Source: a virus (lineage: Duplodnaviria; Caudoviricetes). Taken from it: DNA of 41,652 nucleotides. Of the stretch, positions 16,244 to 35,198 are shown piece by piece. The stretch is taken from IMG/VR virus record IMGVR_UViG_3300037991_001323, positions 1-41,652 of that record, one strand, 5' to 3'. Made by a program: the position numbers and the translations under genes. Position 1 is the stretch's first letter, and every line of letters begins with the position of its first letter. The notes beneath the pieces are model-generated. The model was not told where the DNA came from and ran no database searches. It saw only the letters and a program-made list of their open reading frames with translations.

Positions 16244-18120
16244 GATTTGCTAATGTTTGTGTCTGCTTTTAGCAAACCGTTTGTTACTATACCAATTGCT
16301 GCCTGCTCCATAAGAGAGGTCATTACGTCTTTCCACTGATCTGCATACTCGTTAGTACAAATTGTATCGATCTGATCGTGCACAGTCATAACTATCTTGA
16401 CAGGCACGTTAAACTCACGTATGTAGTCACGAATAAGTATCAGTGCTTTCTTAGTCATGTCTGCAGAAGCCCCTTGAATAGGTGTGTTCTTAGACGCACG
16501 CTCGATAGAACCTAGTTCCATAACGTCTGATCTGCTGTCACGAATTCTAGCATACCATTTTGGGAACCATCGTCTACGATTGTACGGTGGGAAAGTTTTG
16601 ATATACCCGTAGGTCTTACCAAAGTTACCTAGCTTATCTAAGAATCCACCTATTGCAGGGAATGCATCGAAATACTTATCAATAAGTTTCTCAGCATCCT
16701 TCGTACTAATGTCGAGTGTATCAGCGAGTTTGTGTGGGCCCATGCCATAGGCAAGACCAAAGTTTATCGTCTTTACATTAGTACGTAGTTTCTTGTGCTT
16801 AGGACAATTGCACTTACCTTTAGCTACGAGGTAGTTACAATCATCCTCTGCACTATTTATCCACTCTTCACCGTATACAAGCTCTGCACATACACTGTGC
16901 AAGTCTTGCCTTTCTTGTAGTGCTTTGATCCATACAGGATCTTTACTACCAAAAGCTATGACATTCAACTCTTGCGAACTATAGTCTGAGGATACAAAAC
17001 ACCACCCATCAGGTGCGGTAAAACAGTTTCTAAATGAATTATCTGCAGGTATCTGTTGCATGTTAGGTTTACTACTAGCAACACGACCTGTGTCTAGAAT
17101 CTGACTAAAGCTCGTATGTATTTTATTGTCACACGATACAAACTTGAAGAAGTCGTTACCATACGAGGTAGCGAGTTTCATTTTTTCTTTGTACTTAACA
17201 TACAAATCTATCATAGGATACTTGCGTCTGTACTTAAACATCTGCTTGCCATTGACATTCTCAAGATCTGGTACATACTTTTGGAACACCTTCAACACTT
17301 GTGTTGGTGATGTCCACTTGATGTCAACCTTTCTAATATCTTCTACAGGCATAAACAAGTCTCCTTGTACAGCGTCAAGTATAAACTCAGAGAACAGTGG
17401 GTCACGTAGTAGCATATCGTCTAGTTTGTCCCGCATTTCTACGGCCTCTTTCTCGCTATGCTTAGCTATGTTCTCCCATGCATCTCTGTCAATCTGCAGA
17501 CCATTGAATTCTATGTCTGCAAATGCAAGAACTGCCTCGTTCTCAAGATCAACTACACTCTGTAGTTTGTACTGATCAATCATAGGTAACTGTTTGTTCC
17601 TAATCTGACACAAGTACTCGACATCTTTAGCACCGTAGACAATCTGATCGTCACGAAATGCTTGGCCTGTCAAACCTATAAATTGATTTCTTACTTCCTT
17701 ATTTAGTTCTACACCTAGATGCCTCTCACATAAATGCAAAAGACCGTAGCGTAGTTCTTGACCACAGGTAACAACTTTCTCTACTAGGAAAGTGTCGTAG
17801 ACATTAGCACACTCTATGTATGCCCACATCTTAATAAACTTGTAGTCGAATTTAGCATTGTGAAATATCTTGATGATGTCTTTTGACTCAAGTATATCAC
17901 GAAGAGGTTCAATGCTTACACCTCTCGTGTCTATTACAAACTGCTGATCTTCATCACCAATCTGGAACATGATCATTTTCTTACAGGTGAAGTCAAAGCC
18001 TTCAGTCTCTGTATCTACGCCAAGAACTTTCTTGGTCTTACAATATTTAACAACATCATCAATGGTTCCTTGCTTGAAGGAATCACTGATAGATGTAGTA
18101 TTACTCACGAATGTTATCAT
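16231..18120 (-). CDS. polA: Family A DNA polymerase with 3'-5' exonuclease
   Basis: ExoI DTETEG, ExoII HNAKFD, ExoIII YGAKDV; TGRVAS..PNMQQIP; motif A DYSSQEL, motif B KTINFGLAYG, motif C VHDQI. Confidence 0.97.
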   Translation of the reverse strand: MITFVSNTTSISDSFKQGTIDDVVKYCKTKKVLGVDTETEGFDFTCKKMIMFQIGDEDQQFVIDTRGVSIEPLRDILESKDIIKIFHNAKFDYKFIKMWAYIECANVYDTFLVEKVVTCGQELRYGLLHLCERHLGVELNKEVRNQFIGLTGQAFRDDQIVYGAKDVEYLCQIRNKQLPMIDQYKLQSVVDLENEAVLAFADIEFNGLQIDRDAWENIAKHSEKEAVEMRDKLDDMLLRDPLFSEFILDAVQGDLFMPVEDIRKVDIKWTSPTQVLKVFQKYVPDLENVNGKQMFKYRRKYPMIDLYVKYKEKMKLATSYGNDFFKFVSCDNKIHTSFSQILDTGRVASSKPNMQQIPADNSFRNCFTAPDGWCFVSSDYSSQELNVIAFGSKDPVWIKALQERQDLHSVCAELVYGEEWINSAEDDCNYLVAKGKCNCPKHKKLRTNVKTINFGLAYGMGPHKLADTLDISTKDAEKLIDKYFDAFPAIGGFLDKLGNFGKTYGYIKTFPPYNRRRWFPKWYARIRDSRSDVMELGSIERASKNTPIQGASADMTKKALILIRDYIREFNVPVKIVMTVHDQIDTICTNEYADQWKDVMTSLMEQAAIGIVTNGLLKADTNISKSWEK

Positions 18121-18302
18121 TTTTCTGGGTTTAGTAGTCCTTCTACAGTAGCAATGTACTCAGCACTGCTGTTTATAGTTAGCACTTCACCCTTGTGGAC
18201 ATATTCACGTACGCCTTCGAGCCTTGCAAGCTCGTAAGCCAATTTAAATTCTTTATACTCGCCACTTTGTATAGTTTGGTAGAGTTCTTTCATCTTTGCC
18301 AT
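18117..18302 (-). CDS. Hypothetical protein
   Basis: 61 aa, ATGA-coupled to the polymerase. Confidence 0.7.
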   Translation of the reverse strand: MAKMKELYQTIQSGEYKEFKLAYELARLEGVREYVHKGEVLTINSSAEYIATVEGLLNPEK

Positions 18303-18310
18303 AATAAATA

Positions 18311-18337
18311 AGAAAGGAAAGGGTGCCGAAGCACCCT
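18311..18337 (-). terminator. Intrinsic terminator with cUUCGg tetraloop
   Basis: - strand AGGGTGC-TTCG-GCACCCT followed by TTCCTTTCTT. Confidence 0.75.
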
Positions 18338-18371
18338 AACCTATCTATCACCTAAAACATAACCTCCATGG

Positions 18372-18554
18372 TTATTTTTTTACTGTCTTCTTACCTTTAC
18401 TTGCAGGACGACCACGACGTTTTGCTGTAGTTGTCTTTGGTTTCGTTGAGGTTGCCACCAAGTCAATGATGATAGAAGATTCAGTTACTGTCACGTTGTG
18501 ACTAGTGTGTACTGTTACAGACGTCTTGCCTGTGTTGATGATTACATTACTCAT
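18372..18554 (-). CDS. Small basic protein with AT-hook motif
   Basis: C-terminal KRRGRPASKGKK; flanked by its own promoter and terminator. Confidence 0.7.
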   Translation of the reverse strand: MSNVIINTGKTSVTVHTSHNVTVTESSIIIDLVATSTKPKTTTAKRRGRPASKGKKTVKK

Positions 18555-18602
18555 AATCAGATAATTAGATAAAAATGTTAATAATTAGATTACATTTGTG
18601 AA

Positions 18603-18633
18603 CAAATATAAATAAAATAGATATGACACACAA
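18603..18633 (-). promoter_or_regulatory. Bacteroidota promoter (TTG-N20-TATATTTG)
   Basis: TTG at 18633-18631 and TATATTTG at 18610-18603. Confidence 0.7.
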
Positions 18634-18645
18634 GTGCCATACCTA
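18613..18645 (-). terminator. Intrinsic terminator
   Basis: - strand TAGGTATGGCAC-TTGT-GTGTCATATCTA-TTTT; G-U pairs fix the strand. Confidence 0.7.
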
Positions 18646-18663
18646 AATTATTTACAATAAATG

Positions 18664-19257
18664 TTAGCTGAAGATCTCTCCAGTTTCTACATTCACTTTC
18701 TCTGTCTCAGTCACCTTTAGTACAGGTGCTGTATCAGCTTCTAGGGATACATCTTGTGGTTCAGTGAACACAATAGATGCATTGGTAAAGATGTAATCAC
18801 CATTGTGCATGATGAAGTCACCGTCTCTACCCTTACGCTTAGCAGCTGTCTCTACGTTTGCAGCTTGCCAATCGTTTGGTTCTGTAGTCTCTACGATTTG
18901 GACACGCATTGGGAATGTCTGCCCTTCGAAGTTAACTACAGGATTGAGAATGTTTGCAGTTAGTATCTCATTACCAAGTTCATCGAACTCCCAACCTGCA
19001 TTGTCACTCAAGTCTACACCAAGTGCTTCCTCAAGATCAGCGGGCTGACCGTTCTGCCATGCACGACGTGCACTGTTACGAGTAAATCTACTATCAGATT
19101 TGTTAAAGATAAACGCAGCCGAAGGGCCACGGGATCCTTCTTTTACCTCTGCAAGTTCTACAGAAATAAATCCGTTAGCTACTTTACGAAATCTAGTCAA
19201 TAGAGTTTGACCTAGTTTTAGTGAGTTAAGCTCACCACTCATCATTACGTTTTCCAT
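18664..19257 (-). CDS. Hypothetical early protein
   Basis: 197-aa ORF ending NVETGEIFS. Confidence 0.75.
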   Translation of the reverse strand: MENVMMSGELNSLKLGQTLLTRFRKVANGFISVELAEVKEGSRGPSAAFIFNKSDSRFTRNSARRAWQNGQPADLEEALGVDLSDNAGWEFDELGNEILTANILNPVVNFEGQTFPMRVQIVETTEPNDWQAANVETAAKRKGRDGDFIMHNGDYIFTNASIVFTEPQDVSLEADTAPVLKVTETEKVNVETGEIFS

Positions 19258-19291
19258 GTTGTTGAATGTTTTAATGGAATTAATAAAAATT

Positions 19292-19335
19292 AAAAAGCAC
19301 CCAACCGTTCTTTACATAGCTACGATTGGGTGTTT
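19292..19335 (-). terminator. Probable terminator hairpin
   Basis: - strand CACCCAATCGT...ACGGTTGGGTG followed by CTTTTT. Confidence 0.55.
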
Positions 19336-19344
19336 GCTGTTATA

Positions 19345-19443
19345 CTATAGAGTAGCTATTGAAAATCCAACTGCTACCATACAAAATAAGATAAGTATGA
19401 AGACTACAATGTCCTCTATCATATCTTTTGTTTCTTGTTTCAT
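19345..19443 (-). CDS. Single-pass membrane microprotein (32 aa), not in ORF track
   Basis: MKQETKDMIEDIVVFILILFCMVAVGFSIATL*; ATGA overlap with the upstream ORF stop. Confidence 0.6.
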   Translation of the reverse strand: MKQETKDMIEDIVVFILILFCMVAVGFSIATL

Positions 19444-19682
19444 GATTCTTCACTGTTAAACATATCATCCCATAATGCTTCAGGGATGCCTGTGATTAGT
19501 AGTTCACGTTGAGCTGCTGTTAGATTAGGCAAAGCCTCTTGGATATGAATACCAAGTTGCCAAGAAGCCAATCCTTCTGCGTCAACTGTTAGTTCGTGTG
19601 TGTGACCAAGGACGTCACGAACTCCGATAGTAACCGTGTTCTCAAGGCCATCGAAGTCTTTGATGTAAAATGGTGTTGCCAT
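19440..19682 (-). CDS. Hypothetical early protein
   Basis: 80 aa containing IQEALPNLTAAQRELLITGI...WDDMF. Confidence 0.75.
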   Translation of the reverse strand: MATPFYIKDFDGLENTVTIGVRDVLGHTHELTVDAEGLASWQLGIHIQEALPNLTAAQRELLITGIPEALWDDMFNSEES

Positions 19683-19717
19683 AGTTATTGATGTTTATTA
19701 ATGATTCGTTTATAAAA

Positions 19718-20316
19718 ACAAATTGGTTACAGGCGTACATTCCTGCTCAACTGTATCAGGACTTCCTCTGGTAGGTAGATTAAGTAGTAGCCTCCGCAGG
19801 CTCTACTCCCAATTACTGCTGTCTCACGGTTTCCCGTGTTACCCTAAAATACGATCAGTCTTCAAGGGATAACCAATTTGTATTGGTTAGAGGGAAGCCA
19901 CTACAGCCTCCCTCACCAAACCAATAAACGAGTAGTTTAGGACTGCATACTCAGGCAGTGTTACTTAATTGCAACTCTCATAGCCTCACCGTAACTGTCT
20001 AGGACCATCAAGTTACCGTATCGAGGTTCCGTTAGGATGTTTGTAAGGTTAATAACAAAGAGTTGTGCGTTACCCTTGGAAAACCAAACCGACTCCGAAA
20101 TGGTAAACCAATAAGAATACACAACTCTGCAACGTCTTCTTTAATCACAATACCACGCGTTGCTTTGGTAAGGGAAGGTTTAAACACATCATCTGATACC
20201 TACAAACAGATTAAAAATAATTCCTATCAATAAGGTTTAGGTTGCGACCCTTGGCCTCTGACCCCTTATCCTCGCAACGCGTTACTGAGACTCTTTTCTA
20301 GTCCCACGGAATTATT
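19718..20316 (-). ncRNA. Candidate large structured ncRNA or tandem array of structured RNA modules
   Basis: No ORF of 60 aa or more. Nested closing helices at 20316/20216, 20208/20038 and 19881/19718, a CACGG-GAAA-CCGTG tetraloop hairpin, and two pseudoknots. G-U pairs favour the - strand. Confidence 0.6.
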
Positions 20317-20332
20317 ATTTGTAGTATGACTA

Positions 20333-20593
20333 CTACTTACCCTTAACAGATAAGTAATAGTCACGCATTTTATTTTGCTTATCAATGTACTCTTGCGATG
20401 CAGTAATAGCAAAAGCAATAGTAGTAATCATTGAGAAGATAATAAGACCACTCCCAAACCAATCTTGGAAGCCGCTTCCTGATAATAATCCAAAGACAAT
20501 TGCTGCCATTGAATTGATAGCCATAAATGTAGCTAAGAACAAAGCAAACAAGCTAACGTACTTGATTGCACATTTGAAAACAAATTTAACCAT
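20333..20593 (-). CDS. Two-TM membrane protein
   Basis: 86 aa with two long hydrophobic segments and a charged C-terminus. Confidence 0.7.
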   Translation of the reverse strand: MVKFVFKCAIKYVSLFALFLATFMAINSMAAIVFGLLSGSGFQDWFGSGLIIFSMITTIAFAITASQEYIDKQNKMRDYYLSVKGK

Positions 20594-20707
20594 TGTGTTA
20601 TAGTATTAGATTAGATAATTAATGAGGTAAATAAAAATGGTGGAAAAAAGAGAGAGTGAATGTACAACGCACACTCACTCAGTAATCAGTTAACCTAAGG
20701 GCAAACT

Positions 20708-20734
20708 AAAAAGCTAAGGACGCCGAAGCGTCCT
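20708..20734 (-). terminator. Intrinsic terminator with cUUCGg tetraloop
   Basis: - strand AGGACGC-TTCG-GCGTCCT followed by TAGCTTTTT. Confidence 0.75.
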
Positions 20735-20740
20735 ATGCTT

Positions 20741-20974
20741 TTACAACGATATAGTTTCCTCTACGTTGTAGTTGTTGACCGTAGCAATTGGCTGACCGTC
20801 GTCGGTTATGAGCACTTTGTACTCACTCAATGTCCCTTCTTGGGATTTCTTACCAACGGGTAGCGTAGACTTGTCGCCTTTCTTAGTCTCGTAAGAGATG
20901 AAAGCTCCGTTAGGGCCTACTACCTTGCTTGCTGTTACTGCGCCTTGTTGACGCAAAAAGTCTAGTAAATTCAT
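20741..20974 (-). CDS. Hypothetical protein, first gene of the - strand block
   Basis: 77-aa ORF followed directly by a terminator. Confidence 0.75.
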   Translation of the reverse strand: MNLLDFLRQQGAVTASKVVGPNGAFISYETKKGDKSTLPVGKKSQEGTLSEYKVLITDDGQPIATVNNYNVEETISL

Positions 20975-21112
20975 ACCATTTATGTTTTAGGTGGGGCGTT
21001 ACAATGCCCAAAGTATAGTGGGGGTCTGTGTTGTAGTTGGTCAACACGCTCACAAATCCTCCACAAAAAAAATTTTTTCCCCAGAAATTTTTTCTAGAGT
21101 TGTAGACTAGAT

Positions 21113-21120
21113 TATCTTTG
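21113..21120 (+). promoter_or_regulatory. Bacteroidota -7 element
   Basis: TATCTTTG, 7 nt upstream of ATG 21128. Confidence 0.65.
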
Positions 21121-21127
21121 CACATCT

Positions 21128-21253
21128 ATGACCGATGATTTTAATTTAAGTGACGACTTCCAAGATTTTGTTGACGAACTTACGAGTGACGAAAAGAACG
21201 ATAATGCTCAATGCAGCATTGATAATCCAGAATGTGAAAACTGCGGCAGCTAA
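21128..21253 (+). CDS. 41-aa acidic peptide resembling the C-terminal redox tail of class I ribonucleotide reductase alpha; not in ORF track
   Basis: MTDDFNLSDDFQDFVDELTSDEKNDNAQCSIDNPECENCGS*, preceded by a TAnnTTTG element. Confidence 0.75.
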   Translation: MTDDFNLSDDFQDFVDELTSDEKNDNAQCSIDNPECENCGS

Positions 21254-21270
21254 GAAATTATAAATTTTTA

Positions 21271-21278
21271 TATCTTTG
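21271..21278 (+). promoter_or_regulatory. Bacteroidota -7 element upstream of candidate ncRNA
   Basis: TATCTTTG with no ORF following for ~360 nt. Confidence 0.65.
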
Positions 21279-21281
21279 CCA

Positions 21282-21550
21282 TTAGAAGCACACGAAAGTG
21301 TATCACCCCAGAGGGCCAGAAGGTAGTTATGGGGTCAGACGTTGGATTGTAGTTCCTAAATAAGGAATAGAGTTTTCTCCAATAGCTTCGAAAAGAGAGG
21401 ATATAGCCTGTAGTTGGGGCACATTGCACACAGGTAGGTGCGGTGAAGTAACACTAGTTTTAGTGTCCCTAGGTAACCAGAAATGGTAGCACTGCTAAAA
21501 GGTAAAATTCCGATCGAAATGTAAATTCTCTAAGGGGGAGGTGTGTCTAA
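21282..21550 (+). ncRNA. Candidate ~270-nt highly structured ncRNA
   Basis: Own -7 box, 5'/3' closing pair TTAGA/TCTAA, about ten helices, two GAAA tetraloops; G-U pairs favour the + strand. Confidence 0.65.
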
Positions 21551-21582
21551 ACGGGTAAATGTTTAGAAATCTGACACTTTCC

Positions 21583-21614
21583 TTGTAAATGTAAATTATT
21601 TTATTATAACTTTG
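21583..21614 (+). promoter_or_regulatory. Bacteroidota promoter for the late GroES-terminase operon
   Basis: TTG-N21-TAACTTTG, 23 nt before ATG 21638. Confidence 0.7.
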
Positions 21615-21637
21615 TCCTATAACTAAATATATAGGCA

Positions 21638-21919
21638 ATGGCAGACACTAAATTAGACTTTAAACCCTATGGTGGTTGGGTTATATTACCCAATCCTGCA
21701 GCGCAGAAGCGAGAGTCAGGTATTATCTTGGAGGACGACACAGCAAATAAGTTGCGTACTAATGTATTACCAGTGTTGGCAGTAGGACCAGACTGCAGAC
21801 AGACTCAGGTTGGGGACACCGTTATGGTAGACCCTAGTTCAGAGGCAATGATTGTACATATCAATGAGGTATCGTACTTATTTGTTAACGAATTCCAGAT
21901 TTTAGGTAGATTCTTGTGA
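21638..21919 (+). CDS. groES: GroES/Cpn10-like co-chaperonin
   Basis: Motifs FKPYGGWVIL, RESGIIL, VLAVGP, VGDTV and EFQILG. Confidence 0.85.
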   Translation: MADTKLDFKPYGGWVILPNPAAQKRESGIILEDDTANKLRTNVLPVLAVGPDCRQTQVGDTVMVDPSSEAMIVHINEVSYLFVNEFQILGRFL

Positions 21920-22161
21920 TTCCCGCAGGTACAGTAACTATATCTCTAAAGGACTACCACGATTTACTAGAAAGTAAAGAGAAATCTGAAGCTTTGCGTG
22001 ATGATACCCAAAGGGCTGCTAAAGAAATAGCAGTCTTTTTGAGTTTTATGGCAACCCGTAAGGATATAGAGCCGTATGTACAAGAATTTAACAGGCAGGC
22101 TACATCTTGTGAGATAATTATAGATGGTAGCAGAGCTAGAATAAAATTTAAAGATGCTTAG
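21916..22161 (+). CDS. Hypothetical protein
   Basis: 81 aa, GTGA overlap with groES. Confidence 0.65.
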   Translation: MIPAGTVTISLKDYHDLLESKEKSEALRDDTQRAAKEIAVFLSFMATRKDIEPYVQEFNRQATSCEIIIDGSRARIKFKDA

Positions 22162-34034: not shown

Positions 34035-35198
34035 ATGAATGTAACTGAAATGCATATCGCTGTACAGCAAGGAGTGGATAAGATTAATTCACTCCAGGCT
34101 GACAGCTTGCTATCCGAAGAGATAGACCTAGAGTTAAACAAAAGCGTATTTAGATTTATAAATACTAAATATGGTAGAAACAACATCTACCGTAAAGGTT
34201 TTGAAGAATCACAAAAACGTATTGACGACTTACGAACACTTGTACGAGAGTACGAAGCAGGTGTATCTTTTAAAGAAAGGTTACAAACTAAAATATTTGT
34301 AGACACATTTAGGTTACCGGCTGACTATATGTATCTAGTAAATCAAGTATCTAGGGTGTACATTAACAAGTGTGCTCCTATAGATTATCAGCTAGTAAAT
34401 CTACCAGACATATCTTATTTTGTATTAAACTTTGACACTTTTATACTTAATAATGAGGATGGTAATTCTACTGCATTTATAAACGGTATAGAAATGCGGT
34501 TAGATGGCGCAGCAAATGTTGCTACAATATGGGCACCGTCAGATAACCTAATATCTTCAGGATGGGTACCTACATCGTACCCTTCAAACATAGAAGCTGT
34601 TAGACAAGACATACTAAACAATGCAGGACCAGGTTTTAAAATTTACTGGGAAGAGTTTGAAACTTTGTATGAGCCAGGAAGTTTTATTGTAGCCGTAGAT
34701 ACAGAGTTCCACCCTTGGTTTAACTGGGACAACTCTATAGGAGCTGTTTCTTCTGCTCATGGTTTACCATATGTTGGTAGTGATGATATACAAGAACCAA
34801 CACCACAAGCTGGGCGTATATTAGACGCTAGCTACTCTGAAAAAAGAGAACCAATAGTTTTTACAGACCTACTTACACAAGGCAATAGGTTTTCACAACA
34901 GGATGATATTTTTGCATTACTCAATGATCCATTTAATACTACAAAGCATACGTCACCATTGACAACTATGCGTGGTAGATCCCTAGATGTGTACACGAGT
35001 GATATATTTATAATAGATTCTGTAAAAATAACCTATATAAGAAAGCCGAAAGAGATTTCCTTATCTTTGGGGGTAAACTGCGAACTACCTGAACACACTC
35101 ATCAAGAGATCGTTGCGATGACGGTAAGCAGTATTTTGGAAGCCACTTCTGATCCTAGATACCAATCTTCGTTAGTAGAGGTTACAAAGAATGAATAG
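34035..35198 (+). CDS. Tail ring / head-tail adaptor (tail tubular-like) protein
   Basis: N-terminal EEIDLELNK...GFEESQKRIDDLRTLV, LPADYMYL, C-terminal ITYIRKP...CELPEHTHQEIV; central insertion. Confidence 0.75.
   Translation: MNVTEMHIAVQQGVDKINSLQADSLLSEEIDLELNKSVFRFINTKYGRNNIYRKGFEESQKRIDDLRTLVREYEAGVSFKERLQTKIFVDTFRLPADYMYLVNQVSRVYINKCAPIDYQLVNLPDISYFVLNFDTFILNNEDGNSTAFINGIEMRLDGAANVATIWAPSDNLISSGWVPTSYPSNIEAVRQDILNNAGPGFKIYWEEFETLYEPGSFIVAVDTEFHPWFNWDNSIGAVSSAHGLPYVGSDDIQEPTPQAGRILDASYSEKREPIVFTDLLTQGNRFSQQDDIFALLNDPFNTTKHTSPLTTMRGRSLDVYTSDIFIIDSVKITYIRKPKEISLSLGVNCELPEHTHQEIVAMTVSSILEATSDPRYQSSLVEVTKNE

What the first reader, a model, noticed from the sequence alone, without database searches (positions are those of the whole stretch)
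19718..20316. ~600-nt non-coding array of self-contained RNA structures in the early region
Seen on the - strand, in order: domain 1 closed by AATAATTCC/GGAATTATT (20316-20216); domain 2 closed by TGTTTGTA/TACAAACA (20208-20038) with inner stems GCAACG/CGTTGC and AGAGTTGTGT/GCACAACTCT; a hairpin at 20028-19982; a compact pseudoknot at 19959-19930; a hairpin GAGGGAGGC/GCTTCCCTC; and domain 3 closed by the 12-bp ACAAATTGGTTA/TAACCAATTTGT (19881-19718) with four inner hairpins including CACGG-GAAA-CCGTG. This much ORF-free structured sequence is unusual in an otherwise tightly packed genome. Inference: a large ncRNA in the size class of ROOL/GOLLD, or a polycistronic cluster of small RNAs made early in infection for host takeover or anti-defence.
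Basis: partly seen in the sequence, partly recalled or inferred. Interest (0 to 1): 0.85.

Follow-up and report, generated by a model that had tools for sequence, protein, structure and literature searches.

The report
Shuffled array of small phage RNAs
At the head of a crAss-like phage's replication genes lies a gene-free string of about nine small, separately folding predicted RNA modules that close relatives carry in different combinations (some with a GOLLD-like RNA, a tRNA or a twister-like ribozyme among them), likely an early-made, swappable RNA toolkit against host defences, though that function is untested.

Summary
The stretch is not one ROOL/GOLLD-class RNA but a cassette array of independent modules in a Crassvirales phage. 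Among 17 related records spanning both flanking genes there are 11 different module strings. Four modules (C1, C2 pseudoknot, H pseudoknot, I hairpin) are constant, C1 by construction of the search. The rest vary and include a GOLLD-like RNA, tRNA-Met and a twister-like motif absent from this window. Compensatory changes support the H pseudoknot best, and domain 1, C2 and D more weakly. Domain 3 has no divergent homologue, and 'domain 2' is not a conserved unit. No window module matches Rfam; microprotein tiling fails. RNA-library contigs cover C1-C2 but show neither strand nor level. Best reading (inferred): an early polycistronic RNA with fixed boundary elements and swappable counter-defence cargo. 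One lead: module D resembles a type VI-B (Cas13b) CRISPR repeat with an insert, a possible RNA anti-CRISPR; suggestive, not shown. This scan has noted modular RNA arrays before in other phage genomes; no look-alike of this DNA was found there.

The parts
20333..20593 (-). 86-aa hydrophobic ORF, upstream flank of the array in the relatives that reach it
   Evidence: only weak Pfam hits below cut-off
20321..20333 (-). hp0: small hairpin at the stop codon of the flanking gene; duplicated around an inserted module in L047
   Evidence: in 5 of 11 module strings
20216..20316 (-). An 89%-identical copy lies in a distant 117-kb phage, and a divergent subfamily with a tRNA T-arm-like hairpin in L036, L037, L040, L044, L059
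   Evidence: (9 of 31 predicted pairs change on both sides, essentially one subfamily contrast)
20173..20209 (-). C1: conserved sequence module with a variable loop and a weak predicted fold; used as the search anchor
   Evidence: z about 0
20129..20170 (-). C2: H-type pseudoknot
   Evidence: 29 of 30 records. 11 variants: stem 2 100% paired with 4 of 6 pairs varying only to G-U; stem 1 has 3 pairs changed on both sides but is only 71% paired; does not beat the column-shuffle control
20059..20128 (-). D: long imperfect hairpin with a constant base and an apex of variable length; its ends and inner stem resemble a type VI-B CRISPR repeat
   Evidence: 7 of 11 strings
19982..20040 (-). G: bulged hairpin, weakly supported
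   Evidence: two variants only; z -0.3; 2 of 11 strings
19960..19975 (-). small hairpin before the H pseudoknot
   Evidence: kept with a one-sided change in L013
19930..19959 (-). H: compact H-type pseudoknot; a related pseudoknot (K) occurs elsewhere in relatives' arrays
   Evidence: 11 variants, 91% of cells paired, 4 of 10 pairs with changes on both sides, 0 of 500 shuffles reach the covariation score; 22 of 23 records with at least 1000 nt downstream
19881..19926 (-). I: strong hairpin, nearly invariant, following H
   Evidence: z -4.6; 4 variants over 24 matches, indels keep the pairing, no compensatory substitution
19718..19881 (-).
   Evidence: z -4.4; found only in records identical to the window; slot:
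19440..19682 (-). 80-aa ORF (phrog_20898, unknown function), downstream flank of the array
19292..19332 (-). terminator-like hairpin with a U-tail downstream of the array, also present in L032
   Evidence: not flagged by the terminator scan

Best explanation
This is a cassette array of small, independently folding predicted RNA modules at the 5' end of a Crassvirales phage's replication-gene block, which relatives carry in different combinations; it is likely transcribed early as one RNA, likely cut into stable pieces, and the swappable pieces likely act in trans as decoys against host RNA-binding defences. SHOWN: module boundaries, independent gain and loss, sharing of modules between phages whose terminases are 28-98% identical, covariation in H and (more weakly) D1, C2 and D, and GOLLD-like, tRNA-Met and twister-like RNAs in the same array of relatives. 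INFERRED: (1) early transcription by the virion RNA polymerase, by analogy with phi14:2; (2) the constant C2 pseudoknot and the H pseudoknot-I hairpin act as boundaries that block exonucleases, while tRNA ends, the twister-like motif and long stems supply cuts; (3) modules are shuffled by recombination at short A/U-rich linkers, plausibly through the phage's Sak4-like annealing protein; (4) the variable cargo is selected by host defences, with D the best candidate, as a mimic of the Cas13b repeat.
For: Crassvirales terminase, portal and capsid genes. The array heads the minus-strand block leading to DNA polymerase, helicases and primase; in phi14:2 that block is early and holds two abundant, persistent intergenic RNAs. 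11 distinct strings among 17 spanning records; 34 of 66 testable module pairs show all four presence/absence combinations. A phage with a 98%-identical terminase carries a different set. D1 occurs at 89% identity in a phage with a 28%-identical terminase. GOLLD 99-100 bits, E about 1e-25; tRNA-Met; twister-P1 24.7 bits, E 0.0013 in a 121-nt scan. H covariation. One-sided changes in C2 stem 2 are all G-U on the minus strand. Linkers are 19% GC against 44% in modules. No terminator-like site inside the array. Contigs of 4 of 4 RNA runs laid cover C1-C2. D shares four words and an equivalent inner stem with a published VI-B repeat. Phage RNA decoys have precedent.
Against: No function was tested. 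No host counterpart of H was found: 4 of 4 genome hits lie inside long ORFs. No module matches an Rfam antitoxin or CRISPR repeat family. None of 9 D variants is 36 nt long, and one (3 records) loses the GUUG/CAAC ends by a compensatory change. The repeat resemblance is post hoc: expected by chance 0.02-0.4 times if 50 repeat families are counted, up to 4 if 500. C2 does not beat the column-shuffle control. G is weak, and J has no covariation data. The RNA runs were picked with this stretch, hold contigs only, and may contain DNA. The constant modules could equally be purely cis-acting.
Confidence: 0.5

Rival explanations
1. All modules act in cis on the early transcript (processing sites, nuclease blocks, translation or stability elements), tuning the small early genes among which they sit; none is a trans-acting decoy.
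For: H-I often follows a stop codon and is followed by a gene leader, tRNA, K or J. The twister-like F often ends just before a leader. Ribozyme processing of polycistronic transcripts near phage genes has been proposed (PMC6765202). D looks like a long processing stem.
Against: Up to nine modules in a row with no gene between them, more than 20 module types, and GOLLD-like and tRNA genes in the same slots are hard to explain as regulation of one mRNA.
Confidence: 0.25
2. The array is a recombination hot spot that collects structured RNA fragments (pieces of larger ornate RNAs, selfish ribozymes) with little benefit to the phage.
For: Rapid turnover, truncated and chimeric modules (L035, L037) and short repeats shared between modules.
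Against: Stems stay paired through substitutions and indels. H-I is kept in 22 of 23 long records although not used as the metagenome search anchor. D1 has moved intact between distant phages.
Confidence: 0.12
3. The stretch is one large ornate RNA of the ROOL/GOLLD class.
For: About 600 nt, densely structured; GOLLD-like RNA lies at this locus in 5 of 11 strings; a 20-nt complementarity links D1 with C1/C2.
Against: The window's combination occurs only in records identical to it. No GOLLD or ROOL match. No conserved long-range pair; the 'domain 2' closure is in 4 of 30 records.
Confidence: 0.04
4. The hairpins work as single-stranded DNA signals (hairpin promoters for the virion RNA polymerase, or origin or ejection signals) near the point where the two gene blocks diverge.
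For: The array is within about 1.3 kb of the strand switch and GC-skew minimum. The phi14:2 polymerase transcribes single-stranded DNA, and its early transcripts have no common upstream motif.
Against: G-U-type changes on one strand, pseudoknots, and tRNA, GOLLD-like and twister-like neighbours all point to RNA.
Confidence: 0.05
5. The region is tiled by microproteins.
For: ORFs of 49-56 codons overlap it.
Against: No Pfam match. The longest ORF starting within 60 nt of the C1 anchor runs 11-60 codons from different starts across 30 records.
Confidence: 0.02

Closest known systems
Early long non-coding RNAs of crAss-like phage phi14:2 (bioRxiv 10.1101/2020.03.07.982082; passages and section 4 read)
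   Same: Same phage order, same early replicative block, long gene-free tracts of unknown function; there shown to be abundant and persistent.
   Different: No blastn similarity to the first 9 kb of phi14:2 beyond short chance-like hits, and the D1 model finds nothing there. No modular structure or shuffling appears in the passages read.
GOLLD RNA (Rfam RF02032) and ROOL in phage tRNA islands (PMC12286853; passages read)
   Same: Phage non-coding RNA next to tRNA-Met; relatives carry a GOLLD-like RNA in this array.
   Different: The window has no GOLLD match, and its modules are 13-164 nt and shuffle independently rather than forming one RNA of 650-800+ nt.
RNA anti-CRISPRs: solitary repeat units/Racrs (PMC10651486, passages), rAcrVIA1 (as reviewed in PMC13288109, passages), viral sgRNAs (bioRxiv 10.64898/2026.06.01.729453, passages)
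   Same: Intergenic phage RNA resembling a host CRISPR repeat (module D against VI-B repeats), lying among small variable genes; C2 lies 5' of D, where the spacer sits in a Cas13b crRNA.
   Different: D is not 36 nt, its stem extends beyond the repeat ends, and it is one of many modules. The Racr survey found no type VI units. No binding has been shown.
Pseudo-ToxI antitoxin mimic of phage phiTE (PMC3475682; passages read)
   Same: Phage non-coding RNA, compact pseudoknots of 30-41 nt, a locus that changes by recombination.
   Different: Here the units are all different rather than tandem copies, and no host antitoxin counterpart was found.
Type-P1 twister ribozyme (Rfam RF03160)
   Same: Module F of relatives aligns over the full model.
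   Different: F is absent from this window and scores 24.7 bits against a gathering score of 67.2; cleavage is untested.

Membership tests
GOLLD RNA | Match to the conserved 3' region (RF02032) in the window | tested here: not met
   no hit at gathering score or at E up to 10
GOLLD RNA | Match to RF02032 in relatives' arrays | tested here: inconclusive
   full-model match, 99-100 bits, E about 1e-25, below the gathering score of 150; GOLLD-like
ROOL/GOLLD-type large ornate RNA | One conserved unit of 600 nt or more with long-range pairings | tested here: not met
   11 different strings in 17 records; domain-2 closure in 4 of 30
Type VI-B CRISPR repeat / Racr (module D) | Complementary 5'-GUUG and CAAC-3' ends | tested here: met
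   8 of 9 D variants; one has a compensatory change; feature from bioRxiv 10.1101/092577
Type VI-B CRISPR repeat / Racr (module D) | Length of 36 nt | tested here: not met
   spans of 27, 30, 30, 40, 47, 64, 81, 85 and 86 nt; long repeats with an insert are known
Type VI-B CRISPR repeat / Racr (module D) | Poly-U stretch in the loop region, and sequence likeness to real repeats | tested here: inconclusive
   four-U loop in the 40-nt variant; four shared words with the F. columnare repeat, compared by eye; chance estimate 0.0003-4 depending on the comparisons counted
Type VI-B CRISPR repeat / Racr (module D) | Solitary unit, no CRISPR array or cas gene nearby | tested here: met
   only 1 of 28 GTTG..CAAC hairpin-end pairs in the window has the repeat-like 3' word; no cas family among 53 proteins scanned; the record is a fragment
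Type VI-B CRISPR repeat / Racr (module D) | Binds and inhibits Cas13b; the host carries VI-B | not testable with these tools
   host unknown; no Bacteroidota genomes could be reached for a search
Type III antitoxin mimic (pseudo-ToxI) | Compact H-type pseudoknot of about 36 nt | tested here: met
   H (30 nt) and C2 (about 41 nt)
Type III antitoxin mimic (pseudo-ToxI) | Tandem repeats similar to a host antitoxin | tested here: not met
   no direct repeat longer than 15 nt; no Rfam hit; no bacterial counterpart of H; C2 was not searched in bacterial genomes
Self-cleaving ribozymes (window modules) | Match to an Rfam ribozyme model | tested here: not met
Twister P1 (module F of relatives) | Full-model match, and self-cleavage | tested here: inconclusive
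   E 0.0013, below the gathering score; P1 variants keep pairing; cleavage not testable here
Crassvirales | crAss-type terminase, portal and major capsid protein | tested here: met
   PHROG hits; the 12 best terminase matches are crAss-like or unclassified gut phages at 40-41%
Crassvirales | Virion RNA polymerase gene | tested here: inconclusive
   not seen among the 53 proteins scanned; the record is a 41.6-kb fragment

The most novel reading that the evidence does not exclude
crAss-like phages keep an 'RNA anti-defence island': a recombining cassette array of more than 20 kinds of small structured RNAs, each neutralising a different host RNA-binding defence, exchanged between distant phage lineages like anti-CRISPR genes. 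C2-D would be an RNA inhibitor of Cas13b, a pseudoknot standing in for the spacer on a long-form VI-B repeat.
Probability: 0.25. Interest if true: 0.92.

Novelty: new variant of a known kind. Interest (0 to 1): 0.74.

Why it matters
Most phage non-coding RNAs, GOLLD included, have no known function. Here natural variants with nearly identical backbones differ in which RNA modules they carry, which gives clean module boundaries and a ready panel of small RNAs to test one by one. It also shows a GOLLD-like RNA behaving as an optional cassette. If the cargo counters host defences, phage counter-defence has an RNA layer that protein-based searches miss, with a concrete first candidate against Cas13b.

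Tried and rejected
Rfam: nothing credible in the window at gathering score or at E up to 10, including two 234-nt scans covering 19712-20153. No tRNA or tmRNA in the window. INPHARED phages: only a 27-nt chance match for the array, none for a relative's array, chance only for D; no plasmid match for D. D1 as a remnant of the GOLLD 3' end: rejected, since it forms its own family. D1 and module B as one family: the D1 model does not find B. H-I as a twister: considered from recalled motif likeness, rejected because L013's first H lacks I and Rfam finds nothing. Host copy of H: 4 of 4 bacterial hits lie inside ORFs of 268-685 codons. Homologues of J: two viral scans gave 6 and 24 hits, all chance apart from the window-identical record. 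D1 pattern scan: 1 of 14 hits was a new homologue, 1 the identical record, 12 chance. GOLLD in five more distant phage records: 0 of 5, with the controls also silent. Cas13b family search in one phage record was uninformative. Dropped before counting: 4 of 9 viral and 8 of 36 metagenome anchor hits lacking the array context, and 3 duplicate contigs, leaving 30 records; L018 and L050 are identical to the window over the array and are not independent. RNA runs: shares were 0.04-0.05; 4 of 16 runs were laid; lack of cover over the late genes is no evidence. Expression of a full relative array (GOLLD-like RNA included) stays unexamined. Print searches listed no paper on such an array. The alignment files of the viral structured-RNA catalogue PMC10690425 could not be searched (3 files not searched), so single modules may already be predicted there.

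Full report
Context. The 41,652-base record is a fragment of a Crassvirales phage: terminase, portal and major capsid protein match crAss-type PHROGs, and the best terminase matches are crAss-like phages at 40-41% identity. Genes diverge near 21,300. The finding lies at the head of the minus-strand block that runs on to DNA polymerase, helicases, a Sak4-like annealing protein and primase. In phi14:2 the replicative block is the early class, made by the virion RNA polymerase, and two long intergenic tracts there are abundant, persistent RNAs of unknown function (bioRxiv 10.1101/2020.03.07.982082, passages and section 4). 'Early' is therefore an inference by analogy.

Observation. Every helix named is present at its coordinates. 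The stretch folds better than shuffles (z -4.6 on the minus strand, -4.2 on the plus), but energy alone is weak evidence: record-wide 150-nt windows average z -1.0 and several coding windows fall below -4. Rfam and ARAGORN find nothing credible in the window. No terminator-like site lies inside the array. The overlapping 49-56-codon ORFs have no Pfam match and are not kept in relatives.

Relatives show a cassette array. A pattern from module C1 gave 9 viral and 36 metagenome hits. I dropped 12 without the array context and 3 duplicate contigs, leaving 30 records. Between the same two flanking genes, 17 spanning records fall into 11 module strings. C1, C2, H and I are in all 11, C1 by construction. 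The others vary: GOLLD-like 5, D 7, F 7, K 7, Dp 4, L 3, B, E, G, D1b and tRNA 2 each, D1a and J 1 each. 34 of 66 testable module pairs show all four presence/absence combinations, which means repeated independent gain or loss. Small ORFs are inserted between modules in many records. The window's own set occurs only in two records identical to it over the array. A phage with a 98%-identical terminase carries another set, one at 45% shares C1, C2, H and I, and a complete 117-kb phage at 28% carries an 89%-identical D1 in the same genomic niche. Modules therefore move between lineages. Linkers are A/U-rich (19% GC against 44%), and in L047 a module is flanked by two copies of hp0. Shuffling by recombination at such linkers is inferred.

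The neighbours are RNAs. Relatives carry, on the same strand and in the same array, a GOLLD-like RNA (99-100 bits, E about 1e-25, below the gathering score of 150), tRNA-Met(CAT) and module F, a twister-P1-like motif (24.7 bits, E 0.0013 in a 121-nt scan). J occupies the slot after H-I that the tRNA holds in L013 and L030.

Structure module by module. H: 11 variants (two of them the related K pseudoknot, partly out of register), 91% of cells paired, 4 of 10 pairs changed on both sides, 0 of 500 shuffles reaching the covariation score; relatedness can inflate this control. C2: an H-type pseudoknot. Stem 2 is fully paired in 11 variants, with 4 of 6 pairs varying only to G-U; stem 1 has 3 double changes but is 71% paired. 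The shuffle control is not beaten (36 of 500), and the +3 slide scores nearly as well. D1: 9 of 31 predicted pairs change on both sides, but this is mainly one contrast between two subfamilies. D: constant base with two double changes and an apex of variable length. I: strong and almost invariant, with no compensatory substitution. G: weak, with two variants. J: strong fold with no divergent homologue, so untested.

Transcription. Sixteen RNA runs labelled salt marsh or seawater hold small shares of the stretch. In the 4 laid, contigs cover at least 20100-20211 in each, and one 1,020-nt contig spans a relative's flanking gene and array. The runs were found with this stretch, and contigs show neither strand nor level and may derive from DNA, so this is a weak hint.

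Function. Shown: a shuffled array of structured modules. Inferred: one early transcript, fixed boundary elements (C2, H-I), cuts supplied by tRNA ends, F and long stems, and trans-acting cargo. Hypervariable content at the head of the early block among small unknown ORFs is what an arms race would produce, and phage RNA decoys exist (pseudo-ToxI, PMC3475682; Racrs, PMC10651486; rAcrVIA1 as reviewed in PMC13288109; viral sgRNAs, bioRxiv 10.64898/2026.06.01.729453; passages read in each). The type III antitoxin mimic fails on tandem repeats and on a host counterpart for H.

One specific lead is module D. VI-B repeats are 36 nt with complementary GUUG and CAAC ends and a poly-U loop, and long forms consist of 5' and 3' fragments split by an insert (bioRxiv 10.1101/092577, passages). 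The Flavobacterium columnare VI-B repeat (PMC5524643, supplementary file 1, two table rows) shares with D, by eye, the words at 20125-20122, 20115-20110, 20077-20071 and 20066-20062, and an equivalent inner stem. C2 lies 5' of D, where the spacer sits in a Cas13b crRNA. Against this: no D variant is 36 nt, one variant loses the ends, the stem extends further, the host is unknown, and the match is post hoc, expected 0.0003 to 4 times by chance depending on how many helices and repeat families are counted. The lead began from recall of such repeats. I put D as a VI-B mimic at about 0.3.

Novelty. Ten literature searches listed no description of such an array. Most subscription papers are not held, bioRxiv supplements are closed, and the alignment files of PMC10690425 could not be searched, so single modules may be predicted in print. 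Earlier notes of this scan describe modular RNA arrays in other phages, and none resembles this DNA. It is best filed as a new variant of phage non-coding RNA clusters, with new module families. What sets it apart is the population-level shuffling. Verdict: real and modular, function open; interest 0.74.

Noticed in passing
L001 about 1210-2151; L013 1827-2212; L030 1804-2189: A GOLLD-like RNA of about 940 nt acting as an optional cassette in crAss-like phages; Rfam 99-100 bits, below the gathering score.
   Followed up: partly
L019 2627-2683 (also L001, L013, L020, L030, L037; 22 of 30 records): Twister-P1-like motif with a non-standard second pseudoknot, often just before a gene leader.
   Followed up: partly
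L013, L020, L036, L037, L044, L046, L047, L054, L032 array regions: At least ten further structured module types with no Rfam match (B, Dp, E, K, L, M5-M10). B has a loop whose partner stretch covaries by eye; E also has GUUG..CAAC ends.
   Followed up: partly
window 20263-20282 with 20155-20174: A 20-nt, 80% complementarity between D1 and C1/C2 that could give an alternative fold; unexplained.
   Followed up: no
L063 4031-4500 (phi14:2, KC821624): ARAGORN calls a tmRNA in the early region of phi14:2, under small annotated ORFs; it may be one of that phage's unexplained long intergenic RNAs (gene numbering differs, not checked).
   Followed up: no
L069 1430-1730 on the reversed strand (G001): A distant 117-kb phage has further hairpin-rich stretches on both sides of its D1 copy, and a tandemly duplicated small gene upstream.
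   Followed up: no
L017 2501-2538: An intergenic C1-like motif in an unrelated A/T-rich phage contig without C2; dropped from the counts, possibly a distant C1.
   Followed up: no
window 34051-34200: The most strongly folding 150-nt window of the record (z -8.3, 20 shuffles), at the start of a structural-block gene.
   Followed up: no
window 20654-20734 and 18320-18645: Several terminator-like hairpins punctuate the early block (8 found against 2.5 expected over 18000-22000).
   Followed up: no
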